Source of the DNA: an uncultured Clostridia bacterium
GTDB lineage: Bacteria; Bacillota; Clostridia; TANB77; CAG-508
Assembly: GCA_944388035.1 (NCBI GenBank)
Contig: CALXHF010000009.1
Coordinates: forward strand, 1,147-65,146
Direction: 5' to 3'
DNA: 64,000 nucleotides
The position numbers were made by a program, and so were the translations under genes. The notes below the pieces were generated by a model that was not told the origin of the DNA, made no database searches, and saw only the letters and a program-made list of their open reading frames with translations. How positions within the stretch are numbered: the stretch's first letter is position 1; every line of letters begins with the position of its first letter. Of the stretch, positions 9,714-27,009 are shown in pieces.

Positions 9714-10706
9714 GTGGGAGGAATTCAAATGTTTAATAATGAAATAGATAATGGTGTAAAAATAAAGGTATTAGGAGTAGGTGGAGGAGGAAATAACGCA
9801 GTATTACATATAATAAACAAACAAGTAAAAAATATTGAGAATTATCTAATTAATACAGAAATGGGAATATTAAATAAAATTAATTATAGAAACGTATTAC
9901 AAATAGGTAAAGAAACAACAAAGGGGCTAGGAGCAGGAGCAAATGAAACAGTTGGAGAACAAGCAGCTAGAGAAAACAAAGAAGATATAGAAAATATTTT
10001 ACAAAATACAGACATGTTGTTTATAACAGCAGGTATGGGAGGTGGAACTGGAACAGGTGCTGCACCAGTAGTTGCTGAAATTGCAAAAGAAATGGGAATA
10101 TTAACAGTTGGAATTGTAACAAAACCATTTATGTTTGAAGGAAAGCTAAGAAAAATGAGAGCAGAATATGGAATACAAAAGCTACAAGAAAATGTAAATT
10201 CTTTAATTGTTATTCTAAATGATAAGCTACTTAAAGTATCAAATAAAAATACTCCATTAAAAGAAGCTTTTTCTCTAACAAATGATGTAGTAAAACAAGG
10301 AATACAAAGTATAACAGATTTAATAACAACAGTAGGACAAATAAATCTTGATTTTGCAGATATAAAAACAATATTTAGCTATAAAGGAAAAGGATATATG
10401 GGAATAGGAACTTCAGAAGGAGAAGCAAGAGTAGAAGAAGCAATAAAACAAGCAATAGAAAACCCATTAACAGAAAACACTATAGATGGAGCAAAAGGTG
10501 TAATATTTAATGTGACAGGTGGAGAAAATTTAAGTTTATCTGAAATAGATAGTGCAATAAAAGTAATAAATGACAAAGTAGATGATGATGCAAATATTAT
10601 ATTTGGAACTGTTATAGATGAAAATTTAAAAGATGAAGTAAAAGTAACAGTAATAGCAACAGGAATAGAACAAAATAAAAAAGATGGGGCTTCCAACGGG
10701 AATTGA
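9714..10706 (+). CDS. ftsZ: FtsZ-family GTPase lacking the C-terminal linker and peptide (start may be ATG 9729)
   Basis: KVLGVGGGGNNA, GLGAGA, GMGGGTGTG, NLDFADI, VTVIATG. The stop codon lies in the antisense of the tRNA 3' half. Confidence 0.88.
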   Translation: MGGIQMFNNEIDNGVKIKVLGVGGGGNNAVLHIINKQVKNIENYLINTEMGILNKINYRNVLQIGKETTKGLGAGANETVGEQAARENKEDIENILQNTDMLFITAGMGGGTGTGAAPVVAEIAKEMGILTVGIVTKPFMFEGKLRKMRAEYGIQKLQENVNSLIVILNDKLLKVSNKNTPLKEAFSLTNDVVKQGIQSITDLITTVGQINLDFADIKTIFSYKGKGYMGIGTSEGEARVEEAIKQAIENPLTENTIDGAKGVIFNVTGGENLSLSEIDSAIKVINDKVDDDANIIFGTVIDENLKDEVKVTVIATGIEQNKKDGASNGN

Positions 10707-10730
10707 ACCCGTGACCTCTACCTTACCAAG
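10685..10730 (-). pseudogene. 3' half of the host tRNA-Thr(GGT), split by the element
   Basis: Minus strand CTTGGTAAGGTAGAGGTCACGGGTTCAATTCCCGTTGGAAGCCCCA: anticodon loop, T arm, 3' acceptor strand and CCA. No D arm upstream. Confidence 0.92.
10715..10730. repeat. att core, copy 1 (16-bp direct repeat)
   Basis: cctctaccttaccaag, identical to 26830..26845. Confidence 0.92.
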
Positions 10731-10854
10731 AATAAGGTGCGAGTGATATGTATAAATAAAAAATGATATGTATAGTTACGGAATACATTGAAAAATAAGG
10801 GATAAATCAAACATTAAAAAATTCTAATTTATAATTATGATTTTTGAAAAAGAA

Positions 10855-10878
10855 TTTTTTTAGAAATTTTTTAGAAAA
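10855..10878. repeat. Tandem TTTTTAGAAA motifs near the left att (candidate arm-type sites)
   Basis: Two tandem copies; the same motif recurs in pairs at 26520-26551 and 26652-26677. Confidence 0.5.
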
Positions 10879-11159
10879 GTATAACAGGTATATCTATTAT
10901 GAAAAATAATAAAAATAGAGATATTATATTGTATAAATAATGTAATATATGTAATTTTATATATGAAATATAAAGAAACAATATAAAAAGAATAATTACA
11001 ATAATATGTAATTTATTACAAAAATAATGTAATAAAAGTAAAATACTTAACTATAAATACTAGTTAAGTATTTTTGTTGGAAAGTAATACATTTTTATAT
11101 ACTATTTTAGGATAATTAATATATAAAATTAGTATAATGGAAGAAAGGAGAATTAGAAA

Positions 11160-11327
11160 ATGTCAATTTATACAATTAATGAATTAGTACCAGTATTAAA
11201 AAGAGGTCATAAAACTATTTTAAAATATGTAAAAGAAGGAAAATTACCTTCAAGTAGAGTAAATGGAAGATACTTAATAACAGATGAAGATATAAAAATT
11301 TTTTTAGAAGAAAATAAATATACTTAA
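11160..11327 (+). CDS. Excisionase-like helix-turn-helix protein, 55 aa (not in ORF track)
   Basis: RBS aaggag. MSIYTINELVPVLKRGHKTILKYVKEGKLPSSRVNGRYLITDEDIKIFLEE fits the HTH_17/Xis pattern. Confidence 0.8.
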   Translation: MSIYTINELVPVLKRGHKTILKYVKEGKLPSSRVNGRYLITDEDIKIFLEENKYT

Positions 11328-11712
11328 AATTTCATATAAGTTTTAAACATACTTTATATATCTTAATTATCAGAATGACATCAGATGAAATTTTATAATT
11401 AATTAAATAAATTATATATCTATGATATAAAAATGTATCAGATTTTATTGTGAAATTGTTTTAAAACAGCCTATTTACAAAGATGAAATGATGTTTTAAT
11501 ATTAAATAAACAAATGAAAAATGTTTATTTGTCAGACATTTAGAGAATTTATTTTATTATTTTGATAAATTCTCTACCCTCATTTTATTTTAGAAAGTAG
11601 GTGTTATAAATGAAGATATATTTTTATAATTTAATTTTAAATAGTTCGTGAACTCTCTATTGTTAAGCAGTAGAGAGTTTTATTTTTGAAATTTATATAG
11701 GGAGATGAGAAT

Positions 11713-12123
11713 ATGGAGTTAGAAAAAGCAAGTAAAGAAGAATTGAAAAAAGAAGCAGTAAAAAGATTAGAATTATTAAAAATGAACAGAAATATTATTA
11801 AAGAATTTGAAGAAGAAAATATTTTAAATAAATCAGAAGGAAGATTAGGAATATTATATTGGTTAGATGAAAAAGAGCAAAGTATGGTAAAAGAATATGA
11901 GAAAGAAAATGATGTTTTAGTATATCATATTATTAAAACATATACTTTAGATATTGGAAAAATATATGATTTATTATATTTAACAGATGAAAAAGAATAT
12001 TGGGAAGAAGAAAGATTAAGATTAGAATCTGGGTATGTTTTATCACATAGTATATCACAATTTAGTGAAAGTGGAGACATATTTGTAGAAAATAGAAATG
12101 GCGGTTTAGTTAGAATTTACTAA
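11713..12123 (+). CDS. Hypothetical protein
   Basis: 136-aa ORF with RBS ggggag. Confidence 0.7.
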   Translation: MELEKASKEELKKEAVKRLELLKMNRNIIKEFEEENILNKSEGRLGILYWLDEKEQSMVKEYEKENDVLVYHIIKTYTLDIGKIYDLLYLTDEKEYWEEERLRLESGYVLSHSISQFSESGDIFVENRNGGLVRIY

Positions 12124-12183
12124 TGTAATAGTTGAATAATTAAAATTTAATAAGTAGAGTAAAAACAAAGGAGAGATTAGAAA

Positions 12184-12672
12184 ATGGATAAAAAATTAGT
12201 AGAAAAATTAGAAGAATTAAATACAGAAGAGTTAATGAGCTTATTAGTAAAGAAAATGGGCTATGAATTTTCAAAAGAAAATATTATTGAAGAAAAAAGC
12301 AAAGATTACACGCAAAGAAAAGAAGAAATATATTCAGGATATTTGAAAGGGTTTGATGAAGAATTTGAAACTCATATAAAAAATAGAATAAAAGAAACAC
12401 CATTATTAATGGAATTATTTAATAAATTTGCAGAAGAAATATATAAACCAAATACAATACAAGAAATATCAAATAAAATTTGTTCAAGAATAGAAAGTGA
12501 ATTAGATAAAACATTGAATAAAGAACAGAAAAAATTATTTGAACAATGGAAATTTTGTGAAGATAAACTTTCAAATGATTTAGCAGAGCAAAGTTTTATA
12601 TATGGATATTTAATTAGTACAGAATTAAGAGAAGAGGCACGAAAACAATATCCATACAAAGAAAAAGAGTAG
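12184..12672 (+). CDS. Hypothetical protein
   Basis: 162-aa ORF with RBS aaggag. Confidence 0.7.
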   Translation: MDKKLVEKLEELNTEELMSLLVKKMGYEFSKENIIEEKSKDYTQRKEEIYSGYLKGFDEEFETHIKNRIKETPLLMELFNKFAEEIYKPNTIQEISNKICSRIESELDKTLNKEQKKLFEQWKFCEDKLSNDLAEQSFIYGYLISTELREEARKQYPYKEKE

Positions 12673-12682
12673 TTATAAAATA

Positions 12683-13054
12683 CTACTCATCAGATTTATT
12701 ACTATTATCTAAAAGAAAAGATAAGAAACGGTCGAAATATTTTTTATCTTCTTTGGATAAAGAATTATATTTACTATATAGTTCAGCAGATTTTTTAGTT
12801 TCAGAATTAGAGGAAAGATATTTAGTAGGTGTAGGAATATCAGTTATTCCTAAAAGATAATCAACAGAGCAATTAAAATAATTAGCAAGTTTAATAAGCA
12901 TATTAGGTTGGGGAAAAGAACTACCTAATTCATAACGAGAGATAAGTTCTTGGCTAACTTCTAAATCAGTACTTAATTTAACTTGTGTAATATGTCTACT
13001 TTCTCTTAATTTTTTAAGATTATCTAATCTATTTATTACATTACTATCGTTCAT
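12683..13054 (-). CDS. XRE-family HTH transcriptional regulator
   Basis: LKKLRESRHITQVKLSTDLEVSQELISRYELG...LANYFNCSVDYLLG. Confidence 0.9.
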   Translation of the reverse strand: MNDSNVINRLDNLKKLRESRHITQVKLSTDLEVSQELISRYELGSSFPQPNMLIKLANYFNCSVDYLLGITDIPTPTKYLSSNSETKKSAELYSKYNSLSKEDKKYFDRFLSFLLDNSNKSDE

Positions 13055-13161
13055 AAATCTATCCTCCTAAAATTATAGAAACATTATATAAGTATTTCTC
13101 ATAATAAAATGCAAAAATATTCATAACAAATATGAGAAATACTTGTAAAAAATACAATTAA

Positions 13162-14400
13162 ATGATATACTTTCAACAAAAAGAGTTGGAGGTATGTATC
13201 GTGGAAAGAGAGGAAAACAAATTGTTTAAATTCGCGACCAAAGAATTAAGTCAAGATGCTTTTATATGCTGGTGTATAAACTGGTTTAATTACAAAGAAA
13301 GTGTAAAGGGAAATAAAGACAAAGAAAAATTAGTTAAAATGTCAGAAGAAATTTTGAATAAAATTTTGGAAAATACAGACATTAACAGTTCTCATATAAA
13401 AGAGGTAAAAATAATAAGACAGTTTGAAAATATTGATATTACATTGGTTATAACAACAAAATCATCAAAACAATATATAGTTATTATAGAGGATAAAGTA
13501 GGTGCTAATCTAAATGAACACCAACAACAAGATTTATATGTAGGTAAATTAACAAAAGCACTAAAAGATAATAAAGAAAAACAAGATTTAATAGGTGTAA
13601 CAGAATTTAATGAAAAAAATATTATACCTGTATTTTGGAAAACTAGTGTATGGAACGAAGAAAAAGAAAAATTACAAAAAGAATTGAGCAAGAATATTGG
13701 AAAAGAAGTAGTATGTATTAATGGAAATGATACATTAGAATTATTGAAAGATTATATAAAAAGTTCAGAAATAGTAGAAGATTTTTATATTTGTTTACAA
13801 GATTATTTAAGAATAAATAATCAATTACTAGAAGATGAATATTGTGTGAAGAAGATAGTAGAAAATGAAAAAATAATAGAGGGAACAACATTTTCAAAGA
13901 ACTATTATGTATATAACTGCTTTTCAAAATTAATAGGAAAAGAATATACAGGAAAAAGCCACCCACAAACTGGTGGAAAAGTTTTAGATAAATTAAGTAA
14001 AAGAATATTAGAAGAAAAAGTTTTAAATAAAAGTAATAAGTTAGAAAGAAGAAATAATAAAGAAAATGTTGTTGCTGTTGATACTATTAGATTTTTCAAT
14101 TTTGGAACAAGTTACAAGAATAGATTATCAAAAGATAATAAAAAATGGTATGAAGAACTAGAACAAAAAATTGTAGACAAAGGAGAATTTTATACTAATT
14201 TAAGATACATATATTTATTTGCTAGAAAGTTAAATGTTTTTAGAAAAGAACAATATGAGTTTTTAGGACTTTATAAATTAATTGATTATGATAAGAAAAA
14301 TAAAACTAGAATATGGGAGAAGCAGGAATTACCTCATAATACAGTACCATTAAATGAAGATGAAATAATAAAGGTAATTAAAGGTATAGAGAATAAATAG
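13162..14400 (+). CDS. PD-(D/E)XK nuclease superfamily protein with extra C-terminal domain
   Basis: KELSQDAFICW...QFENIDITL...IVIIEDKV...HQQQDLY fits the PDDEXK_4-like pattern (D, then E-x-K). Confidence 0.7.
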   Translation: MIYFQQKELEVCIVEREENKLFKFATKELSQDAFICWCINWFNYKESVKGNKDKEKLVKMSEEILNKILENTDINSSHIKEVKIIRQFENIDITLVITTKSSKQYIVIIEDKVGANLNEHQQQDLYVGKLTKALKDNKEKQDLIGVTEFNEKNIIPVFWKTSVWNEEKEKLQKELSKNIGKEVVCINGNDTLELLKDYIKSSEIVEDFYICLQDYLRINNQLLEDEYCVKKIVENEKIIEGTTFSKNYYVYNCFSKLIGKEYTGKSHPQTGGKVLDKLSKRILEEKVLNKSNKLERRNNKENVVAVDTIRFFNFGTSYKNRLSKDNKKWYEELEQKIVDKGEFYTNLRYIYLFARKLNVFRKEQYEFLGLYKLIDYDKKNKTRIWEKQELPHNTVPLNEDEIIKVIKGIENK

Positions 14401-14413
14401 AAAAGAGTTAGAA

Positions 14414-15073
14414 ATGGAAAAATTAAAGCAAACATTTAGTAATTTTTATATAGATAGTAGCAATAAATATGTTTATGAATTTTTGAAAAATATTACTGAC
14501 AGAAAAAATGATTATTCAATAGTAATAATAAGTGGAAAAAACGGAATAGGAAAAACACACTTAATGGTGGCACTTGAAGAAAATATAAAAGACAAAGAAA
14601 AAGTAATAAGAATATCTAGTCAATATTTAAAGAAGAAAATAATAGAACAAATAAAAAATGAAAATTTAGACAATTTATTTAATAAAATAGATATTCTTAT
14701 TATAGAAGATATACAATTTCTATTTTCTATGGAAAGATTAGAAGAAGAATTTTATAAATTGATTAGAAAGTTTGCAAGTGAAAATAAAATGGTTTTAATG
14801 ACAATAGATAAAGAGAAAAATACAATAAAAAACATTGGTTTAATTAAAAGAATTATGAAAATTGACAAAAGTAAAAGTGTAATATTAAATATAAAACCCA
14901 AAATAACTAATAAAACCAAAATGAAAATAATTAAAGATTTTAATAGTATAAATCATAACAATATGACCAAAAACGAAATAACAGAATTAGCTAAAAAATG
15001 TAATAACTTTCAAGAACTAAAAAATGAATTAAATAATAAAGAAATATTATTTAATGTAAATAATGTTATTTAG
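14414..15073 (+). CDS. Stand-alone DnaA-like AAA+ ATPase domain
   Basis: FSNFYI..SN, Walker A GKNGIGKTHL, Walker B ILIIEDIQF, EEEFY. Lacks DnaA domain I and the DNA-binding domain IV. Confidence 0.75.
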   Translation: MEKLKQTFSNFYIDSSNKYVYEFLKNITDRKNDYSIVIISGKNGIGKTHLMVALEENIKDKEKVIRISSQYLKKKIIEQIKNENLDNLFNKIDILIIEDIQFLFSMERLEEEFYKLIRKFASENKMVLMTIDKEKNTIKNIGLIKRIMKIDKSKSVILNIKPKITNKTKMKIIKDFNSINHNNMTKNEITELAKKCNNFQELKNELNNKEILFNVNNVI

Positions 15074-15081
15074 GAAAAGAG

Positions 15082-15387
15082 TTGGAAATGAATAATTATT
15101 TTGAATTTAATGAAGAAGAATTTAGAAAAGAAATGTTAGAAATGTTTAATTATAAAGAAGATCCACTTTATGATAAAGATTTAGACATAATGTGTAACTT
15201 GAAAATTCGAAGAAAAGATTTAGGAAAAGAAAAGACTTTAAAATATAAAGTAAATAAAGAAATAAGACAAATAAAGCTACGTATTCCAAAAGAAATAGAA
15301 AATGGACAAAGTATAGTTTATATCAAAGAGGGAGAAAAGAAAAATAATAAATATGGAAATTTGATAGTTACAATTAAAATTAAATAG
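15082..15387 (+). CDS. Small protein resembling the DnaJ C-terminal domain
   Basis: IKLRIPKEIENGQSIVYIKEGEK...YGNLIVTI resembles the DnaJ-C V.IP.G...G..GDL.V pattern; no J domain. Confidence 0.55.
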   Translation: MEMNNYFEFNEEEFRKEMLEMFNYKEDPLYDKDLDIMCNLKIRRKDLGKEKTLKYKVNKEIRQIKLRIPKEIENGQSIVYIKEGEKKNNKYGNLIVTIKIK

Positions 15388-15465
15388 TTTTAATATAACA
15401 GATGATATGAGAATACAAACAGAGGTATTTTAAGATTAAAATAATATAGTTTTATAGGTAAAAAT

Positions 15466-16206
15466 ATGGATGATTTTGAAAATAAAATATTAAAAAAAGA
15501 AAAAGAATTAGAACAAATAGTAAATAAAGAAAAAGTATTGATAATAGTTAAAGGAAAAATGTTAAGTGGGAAAACGACATTAGTTTTAAATTTTATAAAA
15601 GAAATGTTAATGAAAGAAAATATAAAAATATTATTTTTTAATCTTAACATAGAGAAAAACTTAATATTTAAAGAATTAGAAGAAAAATATATTAATAAAA
15701 CTCTTTATATAGGTAACAACACAGAACTTATAAATATAAAAGAAATAATAAGAAAAAGTATAGAAAAAGTGCATAAAAATGGTATTAATTTAATAGTAAT
15801 GGATAGTTTGTGGACTATTCAAGTAGACAAATCTTTATTATTAAGTAGAAATGATGAAGAAAAATATATTTTAGAACATTTAAGGATATTAAGTAAAGGC
15901 TTGAAAATTCCTGTTATAATAACACAGGATGAAAGGGGAAAAGATTTAGAAATTATGACATTAAATGAAAAATATAATATGAATATAGATGATTATACAT
16001 ATTCAGTAAATGACAAAGAAATAACTTTTGAGGAATTTTTAGAAGAATATAAAAAATTATTTAGAACAGACATAGCATTTATAAGAGCAAAAGAAAGATT
16101 AAAAGAGAAATTAAATGAAACAGAATTTGCTAATTGGAACATCATAGGAAGAAAAGAAAATAAACACTTAAAAGTTACTAGAAAAAATATAAAAGGAAAT
16201 AAATAA
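15466..16206 (+). CDS. DnaB-like helicase C-terminal (RecA-fold) domain protein
   Basis: Walker A GKMLSGKTT, ILFFNL, LIVMDSL and LRILSKGLKIPVIITQ parallel DnaB motifs H1-H3. No DnaB N-terminal domain. Confidence 0.65.
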   Translation: MDDFENKILKKEKELEQIVNKEKVLIIVKGKMLSGKTTLVLNFIKEMLMKENIKILFFNLNIEKNLIFKELEEKYINKTLYIGNNTELINIKEIIRKSIEKVHKNGINLIVMDSLWTIQVDKSLLLSRNDEEKYILEHLRILSKGLKIPVIITQDERGKDLEIMTLNEKYNMNIDDYTYSVNDKEITFEEFLEEYKKLFRTDIAFIRAKERLKEKLNETEFANWNIIGRKENKHLKVTRKNIKGNK

Positions 16207-16207
16207 A

Positions 16208-17143: not shown

Positions 17144-17158
17144 GAAAGAGGATAAGAA

Positions 17159-18553: not shown

Positions 18554-18745
18554 TAGTTTGTTTACAGATTTATTGATTAATGTAATACAATAAATATTCT
18601 AATACATAATTAAAATTTTATGAAATGTTAGAGTTCCAATACAGACTTAAAAACTATTTAAAATCTCTTGAAATAAATGTATTACAAATGGTTTACGATT
18701 TACATTTAATGTATTATAATAAACAAAAAGAAGGAGATTTTGTTT

Positions 18746-19306
18746 ATGAATACAGTTCAACCAATAAGAGATAGAGAAAAGTTAGAAGAAATGAAGGAAG
18801 AATTAAAAAAGAAAGGAACAAGAGATTATTTAATGTTTCTAACTGGTATAAATTCGGGTATGAGAGTATCAGATATAGTAAAGTTAAATTATGATGATGT
18901 TAGAAATCAAGACAAAACTATGAAACAATACATAACAGTAATTGAGACTAAAACAAAAAAATTAAAGAAAATCCCTTTGTGTAATGATTTACTTGTAGAA
19001 ATGGAGAAATATACAAGAAATATGACACAAAGGGAATATTTATTTAAAAGTAGAAAAGGAGAAAATAAACCAATAACTACTACACAAGCATATAGAATAA
19101 TAGTAGAAGCAGGAGAAAAGATAGGTTTAATGGAAATAGGAACTCATACAATGCGTAAAACTTTTGGATATTGGCATTATCAACAGTTTCATGATGTAGC
19201 ATTACTTCAAACTATTTTCAACCATTCAAGTCCTTCGATTACTTTAAGATATATAGGAATAAATCAAGAAAAAATAGATGATAGTTATAGAAACTTTAGT
19301 TTATAA
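18746..19306 (+). CDS. Small tyrosine recombinase (catalytic domain only)
   Basis: GMRVSD, HTMRKTF, NHSS and RY catalytic pentad. Confidence 0.9.
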   Translation: MNTVQPIRDREKLEEMKEELKKKGTRDYLMFLTGINSGMRVSDIVKLNYDDVRNQDKTMKQYITVIETKTKKLKKIPLCNDLLVEMEKYTRNMTQREYLFKSRKGENKPITTTQAYRIIVEAGEKIGLMEIGTHTMRKTFGYWHYQQFHDVALLQTIFNHSSPSITLRYIGINQEKIDDSYRNFSL

Positions 19307-19333
19307 TTAAATTAAAAAAAAGAAGGTTTTAAA

Positions 19334-20494
19334 TCAAATCTTCTTTTTTGAAAATTTTTTTAGATATTTTGTGTGTTGATTTTGTAACCATTTTTCTAAT
19401 TCATTATCAGAAAGAGATTGTCTTTTTTTGTTCAAATTATTTTTAAATTTAGAAAATGCATTTAATCTGTCATTTTGTAATAATTTTTCTCCATTTTTTA
19501 TTTTTGGTCTTTTTAAAAAGTCAGTTATTTGCTTTATTATTTTTCGTACTTCAGTAGAAGATGTACTTTGATTCATTTTTTTGTAAAATTTGTTCTTGCA
19601 AGTAAGTGTACAAAAATGTTCATCTTTTCTTTTTTTAGTAATAAAGTATTTACCGCATTCTTTAAAAGAACATATAGAAACTGCCTTATTTGATAGAGAG
19701 ATTTGATATATTGAAGCATAAAAAAGAGATTCTATTGATGAAATAGTATAAATATAACAATAAGGTTTTAATCTTTTGCCAAAATAACTAAAATGAGAAT
19801 ATCTTGTAATACTAGAAGGCAAAATTATGCTAGGGTTATTAAATATTTTATAGCCGTTCTTGGTAGAAGTTGAAATAAAAATATCAGTTATTTGTTTTTT
19901 TAATTTATACAAAATATTAATTTCCGTTTCTAAAATTCTTCTTGTATAGGAATTATATTCTTTTAAACCTTCATTAGATAACTTCTTATCAAATTTAATA
20001 GTATTTTGATATAAGTTCATTGCATTTTCTATATCATATATTATAAAAATATTATTTTTTGATTTTAAATATAGTTGAAGATAAAGAAAATCAAGATAAG
20101 TATCAGTTTTACACATTTCAGTAGCATCTGTAATATTGTTTTTAGTAATTTCAATATAATGAGAAATATTTTCACAATCATTTAATATGTTGACAATGAT
20201 ATTTCCTATTGAAATTTTGTTTTTCTTATAATGTATATTTTTGAGTTTTAAATATCCTTTTATTTTTAATCTCACAATATGCATTTTTGTTAGTAGTTCG
20301 ATTTGATATTTCAGAGTTCTAATAAAAGTTATCCTGTAGTGTCCAAGTCTAATGGGGAGAATTTTACTTAATATATTTTTTGATATAAAATCAATAGTTT
20401 CTTTAGGAAATGTATCATAAGCCAAAATTTTTTCAATGAAATCTACAGAAAGTATTTCTTCAAAACTAATATTATCCAATTTTTTATTCATCAA
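19334..20494 (-). CDS. Hypothetical protein with a C-terminal CGNR-like zinc finger
   Basis: CSFKECGKYF...FCTLTCKNK. Confidence 0.65.
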   Translation of the reverse strand: MMNKKLDNISFEEILSVDFIEKILAYDTFPKETIDFISKNILSKILPIRLGHYRITFIRTLKYQIELLTKMHIVRLKIKGYLKLKNIHYKKNKISIGNIIVNILNDCENISHYIEITKNNITDATEMCKTDTYLDFLYLQLYLKSKNNIFIIYDIENAMNLYQNTIKFDKKLSNEGLKEYNSYTRRILETEINILYKLKKQITDIFISTSTKNGYKIFNNPSIILPSSITRYSHFSYFGKRLKPYCYIYTISSIESLFYASIYQISLSNKAVSICSFKECGKYFITKKRKDEHFCTLTCKNKFYKKMNQSTSSTEVRKIIKQITDFLKRPKIKNGEKLLQNDRLNAFSKFKNNLNKKRQSLSDNELEKWLQNQHTKYLKKFSKKKI

Positions 20495-20664
20495 ATTTCC
20501 TCCTTTAAAAATTTTTCCAATATAATTTTAGTAGAAAATTATTTGAAAGTCAATAAAATCAAATAAATTTTGTCGCAAATACAGTAAAATATTTTTGTCG
20601 TATTATAGACCGACAATAACTATTGAAGTAAAATTATATAAAAAGCAAGAGGAGGTGAAAAAAT

Positions 20665-20949
20665 ATGATTACTTTAAAACCAAAATGCTACATAGATGAT
20701 TTAGATATAGAAATCAATTCTGAATTAACTTATGTAGAGGGAATAGAATTAATTAGAAAAATATATGACTGTATAGAAGTAGATGAGACTATTCCTAAAG
20801 GTACAATTACAATATTTTTTAGAGACTGGTCATACAGTGTGCCAATATCTAAAAAAGATAATTTTAGAATTCAAAAGTTATTAAAAGTTTTAGGGTACGA
20901 CAGACAATATGTTGAAAGTATCTATGAATTTAATAATTTTTTAGATTAA
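20665..20949 (+). CDS. Hypothetical protein
   Basis: 94-aa ORF with RBS ggaggtg. Confidence 0.65.
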   Translation: MITLKPKCYIDDLDIEINSELTYVEGIELIRKIYDCIEVDETIPKGTITIFFRDWSYSVPISKKDNFRIQKLLKVLGYDRQYVESIYEFNNFLD

Positions 20950-20971
20950 AAAAGAAAGGAGTGGATTTATT

Positions 20972-21640
20972 ATGCCACAGAAAATTAAAGTTGGAGAACT
21001 TGAAACTCAAAAAAATAAAAATTTAGGAGTTGACCTATTAATTGGTGAAATACCCCAATTAATAAGACCAACTAGCTCTAAAAAAGAAAAAATAATAGGT
21101 ATTAACCAATACAAAGATGAAAAAGGTAATGTCTTATACGAAGTAGTAAAACAAAGAGAAGGAGAACCTTACGTTTGTAGACAACCTATTGGAAATGGAG
21201 ATTATGAATATTCTATAAAAAATGTTAGAAGGGTAATTTATAATCTTCCAGCAGTTTTAGAAGCAATAAAAAAGGGAGAGGTTATATTTATAACAGAAGG
21301 CGAATCAAAAGTAGACACTCTTTCTGAATTGGGAATAACTGCAACTACGGTATTTTCAAAATATACAAATAAATGGAAAGAGTACTACAACCAATTCCTA
21401 GATGGTGCTAGAGGAGTTATAATACTTCAAGATGATGACCAAAATGGAATCGAATACGCTAATAATACCTATACAACATTAAAAGAAATGTTTTCAGAAG
21501 ATAAAATAGGTATAATGCCAATTACGAGCATTTGTCCTGAAATAAATAAACAAGGTGCAGATATAACAGATGTAAGAGAATTAATGCAAGATGATGAAAA
21601 ACTAAATTTAATTTTAAAAACAATAGCAAGTCAAATATAA
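20972..21640 (+). CDS. Toprim-domain (primase-like) protein
   Basis: IYNLPAV...IFITEGESKVDTL...IILQDDDQNG...GADITD. Confidence 0.8.
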   Translation: MPQKIKVGELETQKNKNLGVDLLIGEIPQLIRPTSSKKEKIIGINQYKDEKGNVLYEVVKQREGEPYVCRQPIGNGDYEYSIKNVRRVIYNLPAVLEAIKKGEVIFITEGESKVDTLSELGITATTVFSKYTNKWKEYYNQFLDGARGVIILQDDDQNGIEYANNTYTTLKEMFSEDKIGIMPITSICPEINKQGADITDVRELMQDDEKLNLILKTIASQI

Positions 21641-21995
21641 AAAAATTAAAATAAGAAAAGATATGTAATATATGTTAGAAGTTATCAGAATAAAAATAGA
21701 AGCAAGTTTATGAAAATTTAATATAGTTATATATCTAAAATTTAAAATAGACAAGCTATTAAAGTTAAAGAATATATTTACAAACTTATGTTTGAAGTAT
21801 ATTATAATAAAAAAAGAGCTTAAAAAATTGCCCGTTTCAAAGCTCTTTTAAACCAAATAAGTAGATAAATATAATATGAAACTATTATATTTTCCTATTA
21901 TTATATATAAATTATAGAATAAATTTAGGAAAATATCAAGTAAAATATTGTATTTATCTCCTTAAAAATATTTAAAGAAGGGAGATAAAGAAAAA

Positions 21996-24792
21996 ATGAG
22001 TAGTAATATTTGGCAAGAAATTAAAGAAGAATTAACAGCTAAAGAGGTGGTTGAACACTTTTTAGGACCACCTCAAAAAATAAGTGGTAGTAGTTACTTC
22101 TGGAGCAGTCCTTTTAGAAATGGAGATACTGACCCATCATTATCAGCAAATGATACATATATAAAAGATTTTGGTGGAGAGTTTGCAGGAGATATTTTTG
22201 AATTTATAACACAATATAAAAATGTTAGCAAAAAAGAAGCTTTAGAAATATTAAAAGCAGAATTTGATTTAGATATTGACATTAAAAGTAAGACAACAAA
22301 TAAAAGAAGAACAAGCAAGAAAATCAAAGTAGAACCTAACATACCAAAAGTAAATTTAATAGAAGGAAAAAAAGTACCACTAATATACAATATGTTTGAT
22401 AATGTTAGTTTTAAAATAAAACCAACAGGTCGGGCAAATAGGTGGAATTAAAAAAAGAATAAAAGATTTAAAAATGCTACCATATTCATTAGAACAATTA
22501 AAAAAGAAAATGAGTGAAGGTTTTACTTCAATACCAGCAGGAATAAAAAATAATAAGGAATGGGAAGAAAAAGAAGCCTTTATACAAATATTTATGGTTG
22601 ATATAGATAATTGTATAAAAAATGGTAAAGAAAAGGAAGAAATAGAAGTAGAAAATACTAGACATATAACAGTTGACAAAATTGTTAAATATTGTGAAGA
22701 AATTAATTTACAACCTACTTTTATATACTACACATTATCGCATAATGAAGAAAAACAACATAGATTTAGATTAGTTTATGTGTTAGAACACGAAGTAAGA
22801 GATAAAGAAATAGTACAAGCAATATATCAATTTTTAATTGAAAAATTTAAAAAATATAATCTTGATGAATCAACAGTAGATTTAAGTAGGATGTTTTTGG
22901 GTGGTAAGAAAATAGCGTATTCAAGCGATAAATTTTACAAAGTAGAAGTTAAACAAGAAGAAGCAAAGGGTGTTGAAGTAGCAGAAATTATAGGGAGTGA
23001 AGAATTTGAATTTGAAAAATATTCAAAAGCATTAGAAAATACCCCTTATGTTATTGGTAATGATACTTTATGGAGAGTAGGGACACAAATCAATTCTCCT
23101 ATTAGTAATTTTTTAGCAGTAATAGATGAACAGGTAAATTATAATAATGGTAGAGATATTTTAACAGATTATAAAGTTCGTGGAATTATTATAAAAAATC
23201 ATAAACAATTACCTGTAATAAGAATTAATAAACAAGAATTAGAGAGTTTTAGCTTTGTATTAAATTCAAAATGGAAACTAGAGGCGATAATATCAGCAGG
23301 TCAAACCAATAAAGACAGGATGAGGGAAGTTACACAATTAATAAGCAAAGATGAAGTTATAAACAAAGAAGTATATTCACATACAGGTTTTATAAGAATA
23401 AACGGACAATTAGTCTACTTATATCATAATGGGTTTATAGGTAATGAAAATCAAGAAGAAATAGAAGTAGATTTATCAGAGGACAAACTAGAGCAATATA
23501 ATTTTACAAATAAAGATTTTGATATAGAAGATAGTTTAATAACAAGCTTTTCTATATTAGATTTAGCAGATATAAAAATAACAATTCCTTTACTTGCAAC
23601 AACATATTTAGCACCATTAACAGCAATATTTCAAGAAGAAGATATCAATGTAGATTATATTTTATGGCTAGAGGGAAAGACAGGAACAAGAAAAAGTTCA
23701 GTAACAGCAATGATATTATCTCATTTTGGTAGATTTTCAAGAAACAATTTCCCTTGTTCATTTAGAGATACATTAAATAGTCTGGAAAAAAAGGCATTTA
23801 TCTTAAAGGATAATATTAATGTTATAGATGATTATAACCCAGAAGTTTTAGGAAGTAGAAAACTAGATATAGCTGAAAAATTATTTGGTATGTATGGAGA
23901 CAGGGCAGGGAGAGACAGAATGAGCCAAGATGGAAAGACTTTAAAGAAACCTTATATAGCAAGAGGTTTATGTATTGTAACAGGAGAAAGTTTTCCAAAT
24001 GTAGCACAAAGTAGACTAGCCAGAGCAATAATAGTTGATATTAAAAAAGATAGTATTAATCTAAATAAGCTAACAGAATTACAAGAAAATAAAGAAAAAT
24101 TAAATTATTGTATGAAAAAATATATTGAGTGGGTTATCGAAAATGAAAAAGATATAAAAGAATATGCTAAAAATAAAATGAAAGAACTTCAAAATAGAAC
24201 ACAACATAATGGAATACACGGAAGAACAAATGAAGCAGTAAATGTTATGACAATAGGTTTTAGCTTATTTTTAAAATTCTTAAATTCTTATGAAATTATA
24301 TCAGAAGAACAAGAAAAAGAATTAGAAGAAGAAGGATATATAACATTAGACAAAGTAGCTGAACAACAAGCACAAGAAATTGATGAAAGTAGCCCAATTA
24401 ATATGTTTATATCAGCAATAGAGCAACTTTATACAACAGGTAGAATTTATTTAAAAGATTATAATGACTGTACTATCACAGAATATGATAACACAACATT
24501 AGTAGGGTATGTAGACAATAAAACAGATGAAGGAGTTTATTATTTTTTTCCAGATCTAATCTATAATCAGGTGGTTAGATTTTACAAAGAACAAGATTTA
24601 AAATTTCCTATTTCTAAACCAGCACTATGGAAGTATTTAGATATGGAAGGATATTTATATAAAACTCCGAAAAGCACTAGAAGAACAGTAAGAAGAAAAG
24701 TACCAAATACAGATAATGATTTACCATTTATTCCAATACTTCAAGAGAAGATGAGAAATATCTACTTAAAACCAAGAGTAGATAAAGTTTAA
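21996..24792 (+). CDS. Primase-helicase-like replication protein, split by a +1 shift at CGG 22431-22433 (ORFs 21996..22451 and 22474..24792)
   Basis: The N-terminal part resembles the primase CHC2 region (SPFR...DFGG...GDIFEF...KEALEIL). Skipping C22431 gives ...PTGGQIGGIKKRIKDLKMLPY..., continuous with the ORF carrying Walker A GKTGTRKS and Walker B VIDD. Confidence 0.8.
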
Positions 24793-24794
24793 GA

Positions 24795-24895
24795 AAATTA
24801 CAAAATAAAAATGTAATTTTAAATCAAAATGTAATTTATGTAATTTATAGAACTTAATATTTCTATTTTAAAATTACATAAATTACAAAAAAAAT
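24795..24895. repeat. Cluster of TGTAATT/AATTACA direct and inverted repeats (candidate origin)
   Basis: At least six copies between the helicase stop and the xis start. Confidence 0.4.
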
Positions 24896-24908
24896 TATAT
24901 ATAAGAAG

Positions 24909-25118
24909 GTGTTATATGTGGCAGATGATATAAAAAGCAAGATGTTTAATGAATATCCTGACATAGTAGGAGTTAATGAAATGAGAAAAATGTTAGGAAA
25001 TATAGGAAGAACAACAGCATATAAGTTGTTAAAGGAAAAAATCATATATTCAAAAAAAGTAGCAAGAGAATATAAAATACCTAAAATATGTATAATAGAA
25101 TATTTGTTAAGTTCATAA
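24909..25118 (+). CDS. Excisionase-like HTH protein
   Basis: YPDIVGVNEMRKMLGNIGRTTAYKLLKE...YKIPKICIIEYL, directly upstream of the integrase. Confidence 0.85.
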   Translation: MLYVADDIKSKMFNEYPDIVGVNEMRKMLGNIGRTTAYKLLKEKIIYSKKVAREYKIPKICIIEYLLSS

Positions 25119-25199
25119 ATAGTAGCTAGATTTATCTATTTATGATATAGTATTAGTGTAATAGATAAATCTAACCTGTTATACGGAAAGGAGAGAAAA

Positions 25200-26477
25200 T
25201 TGGTAACAGGTAGTTTACAAGTAAAAAATGGAACATATTATGCAGTTTTAAGTTTCTTTAATAAAGATAAAAATAAATGGGACCAAAAATGGAAAACTAC
25301 AAAAATAAAAAATAAAAAAGGAAACAAAAAACTAGCAGAAAATAAGTTAAAGAAAATTTTAGAAACTTTTGAAAAGGAACTTGGAGAGGAAGAAAAGAAA
25401 AAAGAGGAAGAACTAAAAGAAACACCGTTTAGTAAAAGATTAAAGGAAAATAAAAATAAATCATTTTTAAAATATCTTTTAGAATCTATTGAAGAATTTA
25501 AAAATAATATTGAAGTTACTACTTACGATAATTGGAAACAAATGTATGAAGGGAGAATAACAAATTTTTTTACACCATACAACGAATTAAAAAAAGTTAT
25601 GGACCAAGAAGTAAAAAGAAAAACTAAATATAAAAAGCCAGTAACAATAGCTAATATAACTCAATTTGATTTAGAAGATTTTTTTAGTTGGTTATATAAT
25701 TGTGATTTAAAAAGTTCAACAGTAAAAAAATATTATACTTTATTTAGTCTGGTTTTTGATAGAGCAATAAGACAAAAAATATTTACTTTAGATACTAACC
25801 CAATGAAAGATATAAAAAAACCAGTTGTAAAACCGTATATAGCAGATTTTTATACAGCTAAAGAACTAAAACAACTATTTGAAATAGCAAAAGGAGATGT
25901 TTTAGAAATTCCAATTATAATAGCCGTTCATTATGGCTTAAGAAGAAGTGAGACTTTAGGTTTAAAATGGAATGCAATAGATTTTGAAAACAATACTATA
26001 ATAATTAAACATACAGTAACTAAGGTTACAGGGTGTGGAGAAAAACAAGTAATAGTTTCAAAAGATTTAACTAAAACAAGTAGTGGTTATAGAACAATGC
26101 CATTAACAGAAGAAGTAAAGAAAAAATTATTAGAACATAAAGAAAAAATAAAAGAAAATAAGAAACTATTTGGAAATACTTATATACAACAAACCAAAGA
26201 CTATATATGTGTTAAAGAAAATGGAGAACTAATAAAACCAAATCATTTTACGAAAAGATTTAAAAAAATAATAAGAAGGAATCCAATAAAAGAAGTAAGA
26301 TTACACGATTTAAGACATAGTGTAGGTAGTTTGTTAGCTTTAAAAAATGTAAATCAAAAACTAATTCAAGATTATTTAGGACACGCAAATATTAGTTCAT
26401 CAAATATCTATATGCATTTACAATATCAAAGTAAAATGTTTTCTTCGGATATTATAGAAAGTGAATTAGTAAAATAA
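25200..26477 (+). CDS. Tyrosine integrase with N-terminal arm-binding region
   Basis: GSLQVKNGTYY N-terminus, then GLRRSE, LHDLRHS, LGHAN and IY catalytic residues. Confidence 0.95.
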   Translation: MVTGSLQVKNGTYYAVLSFFNKDKNKWDQKWKTTKIKNKKGNKKLAENKLKKILETFEKELGEEEKKKEEELKETPFSKRLKENKNKSFLKYLLESIEEFKNNIEVTTYDNWKQMYEGRITNFFTPYNELKKVMDQEVKRKTKYKKPVTIANITQFDLEDFFSWLYNCDLKSSTVKKYYTLFSLVFDRAIRQKIFTLDTNPMKDIKKPVVKPYIADFYTAKELKQLFEIAKGDVLEIPIIIAVHYGLRRSETLGLKWNAIDFENNTIIIKHTVTKVTGCGEKQVIVSKDLTKTSSGYRTMPLTEEVKKKLLEHKEKIKENKKLFGNTYIQQTKDYICVKENGELIKPNHFTKRFKKIIRRNPIKEVRLHDLRHSVGSLLALKNVNQKLIQDYLGHANISSSNIYMHLQYQSKMFSSDIIESELVK

Positions 26478-26519
26478 AAAATGTATATATCTATTGGCAC
26501 TAGATATATACATCAGACA

Positions 26520-26677
26520 TTTTTTAGAAAATATAATAATTTTTTAGAAAAAATTATTAAAAAGTGGGGCTTCCAGTGGGAATTGAACCCACGACCTCAG
26601 CCTTACCATGGCTGCGCTCTACCTACTGAGCTATAGAAGCATATATAATAATTTTTTTAGAAAATTTTTTAGAAAAA
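26520..26677. repeat. Two pairs of TTTTTAGAAA motifs flanking the element-borne tRNA (candidate arm-type sites)
   Basis: Copies at about 26520, 26540, 26652 and 26665. Confidence 0.5.
26565..26640 (-). tRNA. Complete tRNA-Thr(GGT) inside the element
   Basis: GCTTCTA-TA-GCTC-AGTAGGTA-GAGC-G-CAGCC-ATGGTAA-GGCTG-AGGTC-GTGGG-TTCAATT-CCCAC-TGGAAGC-C-CCA forms a full 76-nt cloverleaf. Confidence 0.95.
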
Positions 26678-26829
26678 CCATTTTTATTAAAAATTTATAG
26701 CAAAAATTAATAAATAAAATGAATTTTCTACATAAAGATAAACGGCTAAAAACATTGATTTTGTAGTGTTTTATTAGTTTATATATTTTAGCATTTATAC
26801 AAAATTTTACAATGGTATTTGAGTTATGG

Positions 26830-26845
26830 CCTCTACCTTACCAAG
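26830..26845. repeat. att core, copy 2
   Basis: cctctaccttaccaag, identical to 10715..10730. Confidence 0.92.
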
Positions 26846-26876
26846 GTAGCACTCTTGCCAACTGAGCTATGGAAGC
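26830..26876 (-). pseudogene. 5' half of the host tRNA-Thr(GGT), split by the element
   Basis: Minus strand GCTTCCATAGCTCAGTTGGCAAGAGTGCTACCTTGGTAAGGTAGAGG is followed by non-tRNA sequence, with no T arm. Confidence 0.92.
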
Positions 26877-26959: not shown

Positions 26960-27009
26960 CAAATACTATTGACTTTTTCTAAAAAAAATATTAAACTATT
27001 TACATAAGA

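What the first reader, a model, noticed from the sequence alone, without database searches (positions are those of the whole stretch)
10685..26876. Integrative element that splits the host tRNA-Thr(GGT) and carries its own replacement, diverged at the att core
Seen: joining 26876..26830 to 10730..10685 over the 16-bp core CTTGGTAAGGTAGAGG gives a perfect 77-nt cloverleaf (GCTTCCA/TGGAAGC, CTACC/GGTAG, ACGGG/CCCGT), but neither junction regenerates a tRNA. Instead, a complete 76-nt tRNA-Thr(GGT) lies 189 nt inside the element on the same strand, downstream of the host tRNA promoter. Its anticodon arm differs (CATGGTAAGGCTGAGG), so it lacks the att core. Established: tRNA-targeting integrases normally restore the target using the tRNA fragment in attP. 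Inference: this is a disrupt-and-complement strategy; the element's own tRNA may escape its integrase, and the host may depend on the element's copy while it is integrated.
Basis: partly seen in the sequence, partly recalled or inferred. Interest (0 to 1): 0.85.

Follow-up and report, generated by a model that had tools for sequence, protein, structure and literature searches.

The report
Mobile element splits tRNA, carries spare
A 16-kb mobile element in an uncultured chicken-gut Clostridia bacterium has inserted into the anticodon loop of the host threonine tRNA gene without repairing it and carries its own complete copy of that tRNA next to its integrase, a trick first described in 2024 for mycobacterial phages ("tRNA-dependent lysogeny") and seen here in a different phylum and in an element with no virus-particle genes.

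Summary
An exact 16-bp direct repeat (10715-10730, 26830-26845) bounds a 16.1-kb element (10731-26829). The two flanking tRNA halves join into a 77-nt tRNA-Thr(GGT) that is identical to the intact gene at the empty ftsZ/thrS site of a close relative (L007). Neither junction is a tRNA. A complete tRNA-Thr(GGT), "B" (26565-26640), lies between the tyrosine integrase (25200-26477) and the core.

The same junction, about 96% identical, sits in at least three host species. Their own anticodon-stem variants place the crossover inside CCTTGGTAAGG.

Integrases 48-51% identical use the same layout on tRNA-Gly(GCC), some with a downstream tRNA-Cys. A 65%-identical relative has an intact tRNA at the junction.

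Six of the seven TTTTTTAGAAA copies in the window form three pairs around the att regions, and B lies between two of the pairs.

The disrupt-and-complement reading is supported. It is not new in kind: it matches tRNA-dependent lysogeny (Guerrero-Bustamante and Hatfull 2024, PMC10865867). This is a new member, in gut Bacillota and in a non-phage-like element.

Not shown here: expression of B, host dependence on B, excision, and escape of B from the integrase. B-like tRNAs are also native in two relatives (L008, L010), which is unexplained.

The parts
9729..10706 (+). Host ftsZ, the left flank. Its stop codon lies inside the displaced tRNA 3' half.
   Evidence: Pfam Tubulin and FtsZ_C domains. 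The exact protein was found on contigs that also carry the element.
10685..10730 (-). attR side: the 3' half of host tRNA-Thr(GGT), from the anticodon loop to CCA, including the left core copy.
   Evidence: 100% match to positions 32-77 of the joined tRNA. Identical to the 3' half of the intact tRNA in L007.
10715..10730 (.). Left copy of the 16-bp common core, CCTCTACCTTACCAAG.
10731..26829 (.). The integrative element, 16,099 bp. It carries integration, regulation and replication genes, and no phage structural or conjugation genes were detected.
   Evidence: Bounded by the direct repeat and absent from the empty site in L007. Gene content.
10856..10877 (+). Pair c of TTTTTTAGAAA repeats. Putative arm-type integrase sites of the P' arm, 126 nt from the core.
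   Evidence: 7 copies in 64 kb against 1.1 expected. Six of them form three pairs at the att regions.
11160..11327 (+). Small HTH_17 protein, excisionase-like.
   Evidence: Pfam PF12728. phrog_66, excisionase and transcriptional regulator.
12683..13054 (-). HTH_3 repressor-like regulator.
   Evidence: Pfam HTH_3. phrog_8, phrog_4 and phrog_3.
14414..16206 (+). DnaA/DnaC-like AAA+ ATPase (14414-15073), a 101-aa ORF, and a DnaB_C-like P-loop protein (15466-16206).
16208..17143 (+). ADP-ribosylglycohydrolase, carried as cargo.
   Evidence: Pfam PF03747, E 4.6e-71. phrog_6572.
18740..19306 (+). Short tyrosine recombinase (188 aa, catalytic domain only), conserved in the related Thr-type elements.
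   Evidence: Pfam PF00589 and phrog_216. Homologues of 186 aa are present in L087, L088 and L100.
20972..24792 (+). Replication module: a Toprim protein, a DnaG zinc-ribbon protein, and a conserved 772-aa protein of unknown function.
   Evidence: Conserved in L087, L088 and L100.
24909..25118 (+). HTH_17 protein directly upstream of int. The likely excisionase or directionality factor.
   Evidence: Pfam PF12728. Found in the same position in all relatives.
25200..26477 (+). Tyrosine integrase, 425 aa.
   Evidence: Pfam Phage_integrase and Phage_int_SAM_5. phrog_1. Closest solved homologue is Tn1549 Int, 6EMY.
26520..26550 (+). Pair a of TTTTTTAGAAA repeats, between the int terminator hairpin and the 3' end of tRNA B.
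   Evidence: Conserved in L088.
26565..26640 (-). Element-borne complete tRNA-Thr(GGT), called B here.
   Evidence: ARAGORN and Rfam at 69.3 bits. Identical or nearly identical copies at the same place in L088 and L032.
26653..26675 (+). Pair b of TTTTTTAGAAA repeats. It corresponds to the single pair found in the relative L087.
26676..26829 (.). P-arm spacer. The last ~30 nt before the core weakly resemble a decayed tRNA 3' half.
   Evidence: Aligns with the spacer plus tRNA 3' half of L087. Anchored alignment test gave P 0.004-0.03, which is suggestive only.
26830..26845 (.). Right copy of the 16-bp common core.
26830..26876 (-). attL side: the 5' half of host tRNA-Thr(GGT), including the core.
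   Evidence: 100% match to positions 1-47 of the joined tRNA.
26931..26959 (-). Promoter-like site (TTTACT, 17 nt, TATAAT) upstream of the split host tRNA. No terminator is predicted between it and B.
   Evidence: a consensus match only, and the number of such sites is not above chance.
27009..29226 (+). Right flank: T-box leader (27009-27209) and thrS (27292-29226).
   Evidence: Rfam RF00230 at 74 bits, E 2.4e-16, below the gathering score of 93. Pfam ThrRS domains.

Best explanation
This is a 16.1-kb integrative element whose tyrosine integrase recombines a short attP core with the anticodon loop of the host tRNA-Thr(GGT) gene, which lies between ftsZ and thrS.

**The att sites.** The attP core is CTTGGTAAGGTAGAGG here. 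The part shared with all hosts is CCTTGGTAAGG. attP lacks the rest of the tRNA 3' half, so integration leaves two dead halves.

**The replacement tRNA.** The element carries a complete tRNA-Thr(GGT) in the P arm of attP. It sits between two pairs of putative arm-type integrase sites and has the same orientation as the target gene. After integration it lies 189 nt downstream of the truncated host 5' half and of the host tRNA promoter. From there it can supply the lost tRNA.

**Shown and inferred.**
- Shown: the insertion, the empty site, the non-restoration, and the co-transfer of the tRNA with the element into several hosts.
- Inferred: expression and charging of the element copy, the function of the arm repeats, and host dependence. 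These rest on anatomy, on recurrence in the integrase family, and on the experimental precedent in mycobacteriophages.

**Likely origin.** The ancestor was probably a restoring element. It gained a full tRNA next to int, and the 3' half in attP then decayed.
For: - **Repeat and joined tRNA.** Exact direct repeat and joined cloverleaf.
- **No tRNA at the junctions**.
- **Empty site.** L007 carries the identical intact 77-nt tRNA between ftsZ and thrS.
- **Integrase position.** The tyrosine integrase with an HTH_17 partner lies right beside the tRNA and the core.
- **Co-transfer.** L088 and L032 carry the same int-proximal region, about 96% identical from B to the core, although their thrS is only 81-83% identical to the window's. 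A Logan contig shows a fourth host flank.
- **Crossover mapping.** At those junctions the host 5' stem strand is CTACC, CTGCC or CAGCC, while the element 3' strand stays GGTAG. This places the crossover within CCTTGGTAAGG.
- **Same layout on another tRNA.** Integrases of 48-51% identity have int, then arm repeats, then a full tRNA-Gly(GCC) (with tRNA-Cys in two clades), then a 35-45 nt spacer, then the core and the host Gly 5' half.
- **A relative with an intact tRNA.** In the 65%-identical relative L087 the tRNA at the junction is intact and there is no second tRNA. Its arm pair and spacer align with pair b and the spacer of the window.
- **Arm repeats.** TTTTTTAGAAA occurs 7 times against 1.1 expected, and six copies form three pairs at the att arms. 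The repeat sequence changes with integrase clade: TTTTTTAGAAC and TTTTTAGC.
- **Experimental precedent** for the same logic: PMC10865867.
Against: - There is no evidence that B is transcribed, processed or charged. The runs labelled RNA-Seq mostly showed the L008-like native locus, not the element.
- No attP circle or excision junction was found.
- Other tRNA-Thr(GGT) genes in the host genome could not be counted, so dependence is open.
- B-like tRNAs occur as native chromosomal genes in L008 and L010. The direction of transfer of B, host to element or element to host, is therefore unresolved.
- The other end of the L087 element was outside the fetched DNA, so its restoring mode is only apparent.
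- The resemblance of the post-core segment to a decayed 3' half is weak.
Confidence: 0.8

Rival explanations
1. tRNA B is the host's native gene, and the two halves are leftovers of a duplicated or pseudogenised second copy. On this view the element did not bring B.
For: L008 and L010 have B-like tRNAs at the native ftsZ/thrS position with no element. L008-like contigs are common in chicken-gut runs.
Against: - B lies inside the direct repeats, next to int.
- The closest A-type empty site, L007, has a single tRNA equal to the joined halves.
- B together with its flanks is about 96% identical in three hosts whose thrS is 81-83% identical, and each of those hosts has its own split 5' half.
- None of the 80 related loci has tandem Thr genes at this site.
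Confidence: 0.03
2. This was a one-off aberrant integration of an ordinary restoring element at a secondary site or partial core. The internal tRNA is unrelated cargo.
For: The 65%-identical relative L087 appears to restore the tRNA. Secondary-site integration is known for such integrases (PMC10865867).
Against: The identical non-restoring junction recurs in at least 3-4 hosts. The same layout recurs with tRNA-Gly in three further integrase clades, across many contigs.
Confidence: 0.04
3. The element tRNA is kept mainly for another purpose, such as replacing tRNAs cut by anticodon nucleases or matching codon usage. Compensating for the split gene would be incidental, because the host has redundant Thr decoding.
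For: The host's tRNA redundancy is unknown. PMC10865867 itself raises counter-defence as a possible selective force.
Against: The carried tRNA always has the isotype and anticodon of the split target: Thr(GGT) with Thr(GGT), and Gly(GCC) with Gly(GCC). In two clades the carried set also includes tRNA-Cys. It always sits in the same orientation just downstream of the split 5' half.
Confidence: 0.1
4. The insertion is an old, immobilised relic inherited vertically. The arrangement would then reflect decay rather than a working strategy.
For: No attP or attB junction from excision was detected. Int identity between the window and L088 (82% aa) is similar to the divergence of the hosts.
Against: - The element is present in some close relatives and absent in others (window against L007 and L008, with thrS 95% identical).
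- The direct repeats are exact and int and the tRNA are intact.
- The non-coding att region is 96% identical across hosts that are 81-83% identical.
- The host 5' halves keep stem variants that are native in intact tRNAs of related species, which implies separate insertions.
Confidence: 0.05

Closest known systems
tRNA-dependent lysogeny of actinobacteriophages, such as Fionnbharth (K4), LeBron (L1), Cain (K6), Gaia (X) and BrutonGaster (Guerrero-Bustamante and Hatfull, mBio 2024, PMC10865867)
   Same: - A tyrosine integrase with pairs of putative arm-type sites.
- attB lies in a host tRNA gene.
- The common core is short: 8-17 bp in those phages, and 16 bp here (11 bp shared with all hosts).
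- No functional tRNA is formed at attL or attR.
[quoted passage not shown]
- Close relatives with long cores restore the tRNA and carry no tRNA of their own. The L087 relative here appears to do the same.
- In Gaia the tRNA lies just downstream of int, as it does here.
   Different: - The host is an uncultured low-GC gut Clostridia bacterium (Bacillota), not an actinobacterium.
- The element has no detectable virion, lysis or conjugation genes, so "lysogeny" may not be the right word.
- The tRNA sits inside the attP P arm, between arm-repeat pairs, and lands directly behind the split host 5' half. In Fionnbharth it lies several genes away, overlapping gene 37.
- Sister clades carry two tRNAs (Gly and Cys).
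- The requirement for the tRNA is shown experimentally there and is untested here.
Prophage Lj965 of Lactobacillus johnsonii (as cited in PMC10865867)
   Same: It is in a Bacillota host. Integration is reported not to rebuild the tRNA at the junction, and the prophage encodes a cognate tRNA.
   Different: Lj965 is a full prophage. I did not read the original papers, so the details of its core and tRNA position were not compared.
Classical tRNA-targeting integrases with an anticodon-loop crossover that restore the gene (Williams 2002 sublocation classes, cited from my own knowledge). Here the apparent example is the L087 relative.
   Same: The crossover is in the 7-nt anticodon loop, flanked by the symmetric stem. 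int lies adjacent to the tRNA 3' side, and there are arm-type repeats.
   Different: Those attP sites carry the whole tRNA 3' part, so attL is a working gene. Here homology stops 16-19 bp into the tRNA.
Haemophilus phage HP1 attP, which duplicates part of a host tRNA operon (from my own knowledge, not checked here)
   Same: attP carries whole downstream tRNA genes, so the operon still works after integration. Compare the Gly and Cys pair in the P0015 and P0045 elements.
   Different: HP1 rebuilds the targeted tRNA itself through extended homology. Here the targeted tRNA is left broken and a separate full copy is supplied.
Phage-inducible chromosomal islands and other small integrative mobilisable elements
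   Same: Similar size (16 kb). Has an int and xis pair, an HTH repressor, a primase and replication module, and cargo, with no structural genes.
   Different: No packaging or capsid-redirecting genes, no relaxase and no helper phage were identified. Membership was not established.

Membership tests
tRNA-dependent lysogeny / tRNA-dependent integration (PMC10865867) | Integration is mediated by a tyrosine-family integrase. | tested here: met
   PF00589 and PF13102 in the 425-aa protein at 25200-26477. phrog_1. Tn1549 Int is the closest solved homologue.
tRNA-dependent lysogeny / tRNA-dependent integration (PMC10865867) | attB overlaps a host tRNA gene. | tested here: met
   The empty site in L007 holds an intact tRNA-Thr(GGT) identical to the joined halves.
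tRNA-dependent lysogeny / tRNA-dependent integration (PMC10865867) | The common core is short, so no functional tRNA is rebuilt at attL or attR. | tested here: met
   16-bp exact core. Only 11 bp are shared with the L088 and L032 hosts. ARAGORN and Rfam call no tRNA at either junction.
tRNA-dependent lysogeny / tRNA-dependent integration (PMC10865867) | [quoted passage not shown] | tested here: met
   tRNA-Thr(GGT) at 26565-26640, inside the repeats. It is carried with the element in L088 and L032.
tRNA-dependent lysogeny / tRNA-dependent integration (PMC10865867) | The host tRNA is essential or single-copy, and the element tRNA is required for viable integrants. | not testable with these tools
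Genetic experiments are needed.
tRNA-dependent lysogeny / tRNA-dependent integration (PMC10865867) | The element is a temperate phage, that is, a prophage. | tested here: not met
   Pfam, PHROGs, NCBIfam and PADLOC scans found no capsid, terminase, tail, portal or lysis gene. The best hit to a phage record is 37% identical to Int, and there was nothing close in IMG/VR. Several ORFs remain unannotated, so a satellite lifestyle is not excluded.
Anticodon-loop class of tRNA-integrating tyrosine recombinases | Strand exchange occurs within the 7-nt anticodon loop, flanked by the stem. | tested here: met
   Host-specific 5' stem strands (CTACC, CTGCC, CAGCC) are joined to an invariant element 3' strand (GGTAG) at three junctions.
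Anticodon-loop class of tRNA-integrating tyrosine recombinases | attP supplies the tRNA 3' portion, so the gene is restored. | tested here: not met
   Homology ends 16-19 bp into the tRNA. The following 30 nt is not a T arm or acceptor strand.
Phage satellite (PICI-like) | Contains int, a repressor and a replication module in roughly 10-16 kb, lacks virion genes, and has helper-dependent packaging functions. | tested here: inconclusive
   The first three features are present. No packaging or helper-interaction gene could be recognised, and no helper phage is known.

The most novel reading that the evidence does not exclude
In this integrase family, elements that break a tRNA and supply their own copy may gradually replace the native tRNA genes of gut Clostridia. 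After integration, recombination or deletion can lock the element's tRNA into the chromosome.

Candidate fossils of this process:
- The L008 tRNA, which differs from B at one position and is followed by 43 nt of element flank with the arm repeats, but has no element.
- The AT-rich, element-type tRNA-Gly halves found at most of the P0018 junctions and at one P0015 junction (L104).

When the fixed copy carries a substitution that breaks the core (A32 or G32, where 39 of 44 tRNA-Thr(GGT) genes next to thrS in related species keep the core with T32), the host locus would become refractory to further integration. The element tRNA would then be both an addiction module and, as a fossil, an immunity allele.
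Probability: 0.25. Interest if true: 0.65.

Novelty: new member of a known kind. Interest (0 to 1): 0.4.

Why it matters
The authors of the 2024 paper wrote that tRNA-dependent lysogeny needed to be looked for outside actinobacteriophages. This locus and its relatives contribute three things.

1. **Spread.** The same solution is used by a whole integrase family in uncultured gut Clostridia. It targets at least two tRNAs, and the elements do not look like complete phages.

2. **Evolution.** The family contains a natural comparative series bearing on how the system evolves:
   - an apparently restoring relative (L087);
   - elements with the tRNA inserted next to int and a possibly decayed 3' half in attP;
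   - two-tRNA versions;
   - possible chromosomal fossils.

3. **Annotation.** Island and prophage finders that expect a restored tRNA plus a long direct repeat will misplace the borders of such elements. They will also count the element's tRNA as a host gene.

Tried and rejected
- **Reads across the whole element.** Narrower lays on Logan contigs showed only other species' intact A-type tRNAs and a further host junction, with no attP or attB of this strain.
- **Search for the attP junction.** Exact-pattern scans found nothing in JGI metagenomes or IMG/VR.
- **Evidence for expression of B.** The runs labelled RNA-Seq contained mostly the L008-like native locus, so they were uninformative.
- **Runs holding the L100 variant.** What follows the L100 tRNA is therefore unknown.
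- **Integrase relatives in IMG/VR.** Only hits of 26% identity were found.
- **Decayed 3' half in attP.** A first test with free end gaps was meaningless. The anchored test gave P 0.004-0.03, which I treat as suggestive only.
- **L008 filler sequence.** The ~65-nt filler between ftsZ and the arm repeats in L008 has no convincing match in the element.
- **Tandem composite of two elements.** I considered this because of the two HTH_17 genes and the second, short recombinase. No internal core-like site exists, and the short recombinase is conserved inside the related elements. I therefore treat the region as one excision unit with variable left-hand cargo.
- **Defence cargo.** The PADLOC scan gave only weak hits.

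Full report
**Observation**

The window has two tRNA genes: tRNA-Thr(GGT) at 26565-26640 on the minus strand, and an unrelated tRNA-Glu (Rfam agrees). CCTCTACCTTACCAAG occurs exactly at 10715-10730 and at 26830-26845. The only other near-match, with 3 mismatches, is the anticodon region of the complete tRNA. Shuffles never gave three matches.

The sequence to the left of the first copy (10685-10714) is a tRNA T arm, acceptor strand and CCA. The sequence to the right of the second copy (26846-26876) is an acceptor strand, D arm and anticodon stem. Joined over the core, they give a 77-nt sequence that ARAGORN folds as tRNA-Thr(GGT). Neither junction alone is called a tRNA.

**Host and empty site**

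The flanks are ftsZ (9729-10706) and thrS (27292-29226), the latter behind a T-box leader. The exact FtsZ and ThrRS proteins occur on chicken-gut metagenome contigs that show the same insertion. One is a 29.9-kb contig spanning both junctions, and others come from different samples.

A scan of one genome per GTDB species with ThrRS returned 80 loci from uncultured low-GC Clostridia. Most have a single tRNA-Thr(GGT) on the opposite strand just upstream of thrS. In L007 (ThrRS 98% aa, thrS 95% nt identical) that tRNA is identical to the joined 77-mer and sits between ftsZ and thrS with no element. This is the empty site.

**The element (10731-26829)**

- Left part: an excisionase-like HTH_17 gene, an HTH_3 repressor-like gene, a DnaA/DnaC-like ATPase, a DnaB_C-like protein and an ADP-ribosylglycohydrolase.
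- Right part: a short catalytic-domain-only tyrosine recombinase, Toprim and DnaG-zinc-ribbon proteins, a conserved 772-aa protein, a second HTH_17 gene and the 425-aa tyrosine integrase. The integrase ends 87 nt before the internal tRNA.

Four libraries recognised no virion, lysis, relaxase or type IV secretion gene. The best match of Int in deposited phage genomes is 37% identical. The closest solved structure is Tn1549 Int. I therefore call it an integrative element of unknown transfer mode, possibly satellite-like, and not a prophage.

**Recurrence, and where the crossover is**

The integrase has relatives of 98, 86, 82, 68 and 65% identity, and many around 40-53%.

The 82% relative (L088) and the GTDB locus L032 have the same right end: int, a repeat pair, tRNA B, a repeat pair, a 154-nt spacer, the core, and then a host 5' half. 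From B to the core these regions are about 96% identical to the window, although the hosts' thrS genes are only 81-83% identical.

At the junction the host strand of the anticodon stem is CTACC in the window, CTGCC in L088 and CAGCC in L032. These variants are native, with their compensating partners, in intact tRNAs of related species. The element strand stays GGTAG. Two things follow:
- The insertions are separate events.
- Strand exchange lies within CCTTGGTAAGG, that is, the loop plus two pairs on each side.

Logan contigs add a fourth host flank.

**The wider integrase family**

- **P0018 (48% identity), six places.** The order is int, two TTTTTTAGAAC repeats, 122 nt, a complete tRNA-Gly(GCC), 40 nt, then CTTGGCAAGG fused to a host tRNA-Gly 5' half.
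- **P0015 (49%) and P0045 (51%).** These carry a complete tRNA-Cys(GCA) and a complete tRNA-Gly(GCC), followed by 35-45 nt, the core and the host Gly 5' half. I read this as replacing both members of a Gly-Cys operon that the insertion would cut off from its promoter. The empty Gly site was not examined.
- **P0006 (65%, L087).** This sits at the same thrS site. It has one repeat pair, 104 nt, and then an intact A-type tRNA at the native position, with no second tRNA. Its far end was out of reach, so restoration is only apparent.
- **P0002 (86%, L100).** This has a full A-like tRNA 14 nt from a repeat, but with T31/C32. The contig ends there.

The alignment shows that repeat pair b and the spacer of the window correspond to the pair and spacer of L087. 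Pair a plus tRNA B is then an insertion relative to L087. The 30 nt before the core aligns with L087's tRNA 3' half with many G/C to A/T differences. An anchored test against random element 26-mers gave P 0.004-0.03, which is suggestive and no more.

**Arm repeats and expression**

TTTTTTAGAAA occurs 7 times in 64 kb, against 1.1 expected, and no shuffle reached 7. Six copies, all on the plus strand, form three pairs:
- pair c at 10856/10867;
- pair a at 26520/26540;
- pair b at 26653/26665.

The seventh copy lies in the thrS promoter spacer on the other strand. In attP the pairs would flank the core at about 126 nt on one side (pair c) and at about 163 and 288 nt on the other (pairs b and a), with tRNA B between the last two. 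The repeat sequence differs between integrase clades, as expected for integrase arm sites. This is inference.

In every case the carried tRNA has the orientation of the split gene and lies just downstream of its 5' half. A promoter-like site precedes the split half (26959-26931), and no terminator is predicted before B. Read-through from the host promoter is therefore plausible but untested.

**Does B escape the integrase?**

Of the 44 tRNA-Thr(GGT) genes next to thrS in the related species, 39 contain CCTTGGTAAGG. The element copies have A32 (window, L088, L032) or T31/C32 (L100). This is a mismatch at the edge of the presumed overlap region, and in tyrosine recombinases such mismatches usually block exchange (established knowledge; also discussed in PMC10865867).

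The tRNA-Gly copies of the P0018 and P0015 elements, however, keep the identical 11 bp. Only the P0045 copy differs, at CGTTGCCAACG. Divergence of the core is therefore not a general rule in this family.

L008 (thrS 95% identical) and L010 have B-like tRNAs at the native site without an element.

L008's tRNA differs from B only at position 17, where it has the base common in native genes. It is followed by 43 nt that are 96% identical to the element's int-proximal flank, including the repeats. Its 5' flank is host-like. The same configuration is in independent runs. L010 has no such flank.

I see two readings:
- B was captured from such a host.
- L008 is a fossil, formed by recombination between a split host 5' half and B, followed by loss of the rest of the element.

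A parallel exists in the Gly clades. There, many junction halves are of the AT-rich element type rather than the canonical type. I could not decide between the two readings. Neither changes the conclusion for this window, because B lies inside the repeats and travels with the element.

**Comparison with what is known**

A full-text search found Guerrero-Bustamante and Hatfull 2024 (PMC10865867). That paper describes tyrosine integrases, attB in a tRNA gene, common cores of 8-17 bp, no tRNA rebuilt, and a phage tRNA of the same isotype that is required for viable lysogens. It also describes close relatives with 43-52-bp cores that restore the gene and lack a tRNA, and arm-site pairs flanking the core. 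In Gaia the tRNA lies just downstream of int. The authors cite prophage Lj965 as a likely case in Lactobacillus and call for surveys outside actinobacteriophages. A later paper mentions similar prophages in rhizobia.

The present locus meets every sequence-level criterion of that system. It fails only the criterion of being a phage, and the genetic requirement cannot be tested here.

**Verdict**

The finding is real and well interpreted, but it is a new member of a known kind rather than a new strategy. Its added value lies in four points:
- a new phylum and habitat;
- a non-phage-like carrier;
- the placement of the tRNA(s) inside attP, behind the split gene;
- a family with restoring, non-restoring, two-tRNA and possibly fossil states.

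Noticed in passing
window 27009-27230: There is a T-box leader upstream of thrS: RF00230 at 74 bits, E 2.4e-16, below the gathering score of 93. A terminator hairpin lies at 27201-27230. It was missed by the gathering-threshold scan. The split tRNA-Thr gene is therefore the immediate neighbour of a tRNA-sensing thrS leader.
   Followed up: partly
L008 4428-4548 (CALYBF010000074.1); also Logan runs X6, X25, X26: A B-like tRNA-Thr, differing from window B at one base, sits at the native ftsZ/thrS site. It is followed by 43 nt that are 96% identical to the element's int-proximal flank with the TTTT(TT)AGAAA repeats, but no element is present. It could be a fossil of the element or the donor of its tRNA.
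   Followed up: partly
L090-L095 about 11729-11770; L104 about 4738-4775: At most junctions of the P0018 tRNA-Gly-targeting relatives, and at one P0015 junction (L104), the split host 5' half is an AT-rich, element-type tRNA-Gly (GCAGGTATAGTTTAGTGGTAAAACATAACC). In L092, L105, L106 and L108 it is the canonical GCGGGA(G/A)TAGCTCAG type. This suggests earlier replacement of the native gene, or serial targeting of element-borne tRNAs.
   Followed up: partly
L104 4529-4701; L109 4449-4609: Relatives with 49-51% identical integrases carry two complete tRNAs, Cys(GCA) and Gly(GCC), between int and the core, as if to replace a whole Gly-Cys operon.
   Followed up: partly
window 18740-19306: A second, short tyrosine recombinase (188 aa, catalytic domain only; phrog_216 at 212 bits) lies in the middle of the element. 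It is conserved at 186 aa in L087, L088 and L100. Its role is unknown.
   Followed up: no
window 10685-10706; L007 9313-9486; L008 4369-4470: In the window the ftsZ reading frame runs into the tRNA 3' half and stops inside it. The ftsZ-tRNA spacer is about 0, 100 and 170 nt in three genomes whose thrS is 95-98% identical. This is a hypervariable junction, consistent with repeated element traffic.
   Followed up: no
window 26603-26609 relative to 26520-26550 and 26653-26675: The anticodon loop of tRNA B lies 53 nt from repeat pair a and 44 nt from repeat pair b. That geometry would itself suit an attP core. Whether B can act as a second or ancestral att site is unknown.
   Followed up: no
window 16208-17143; L100 2662-2973: Cargo differs between copies. 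There is an ADP-ribosylglycohydrolase here and in L088, and a ParE-family toxin gene in the 86%-Int relative L100.
   Followed up: no
protein P0004: A 653-aa predicted protein is 100% identical to the integrase over 77% of its length and is fused to a PF09820 domain, on a 6-kb ENA contig. It could be an assembly chimera or a rearranged copy.
   Followed up: no
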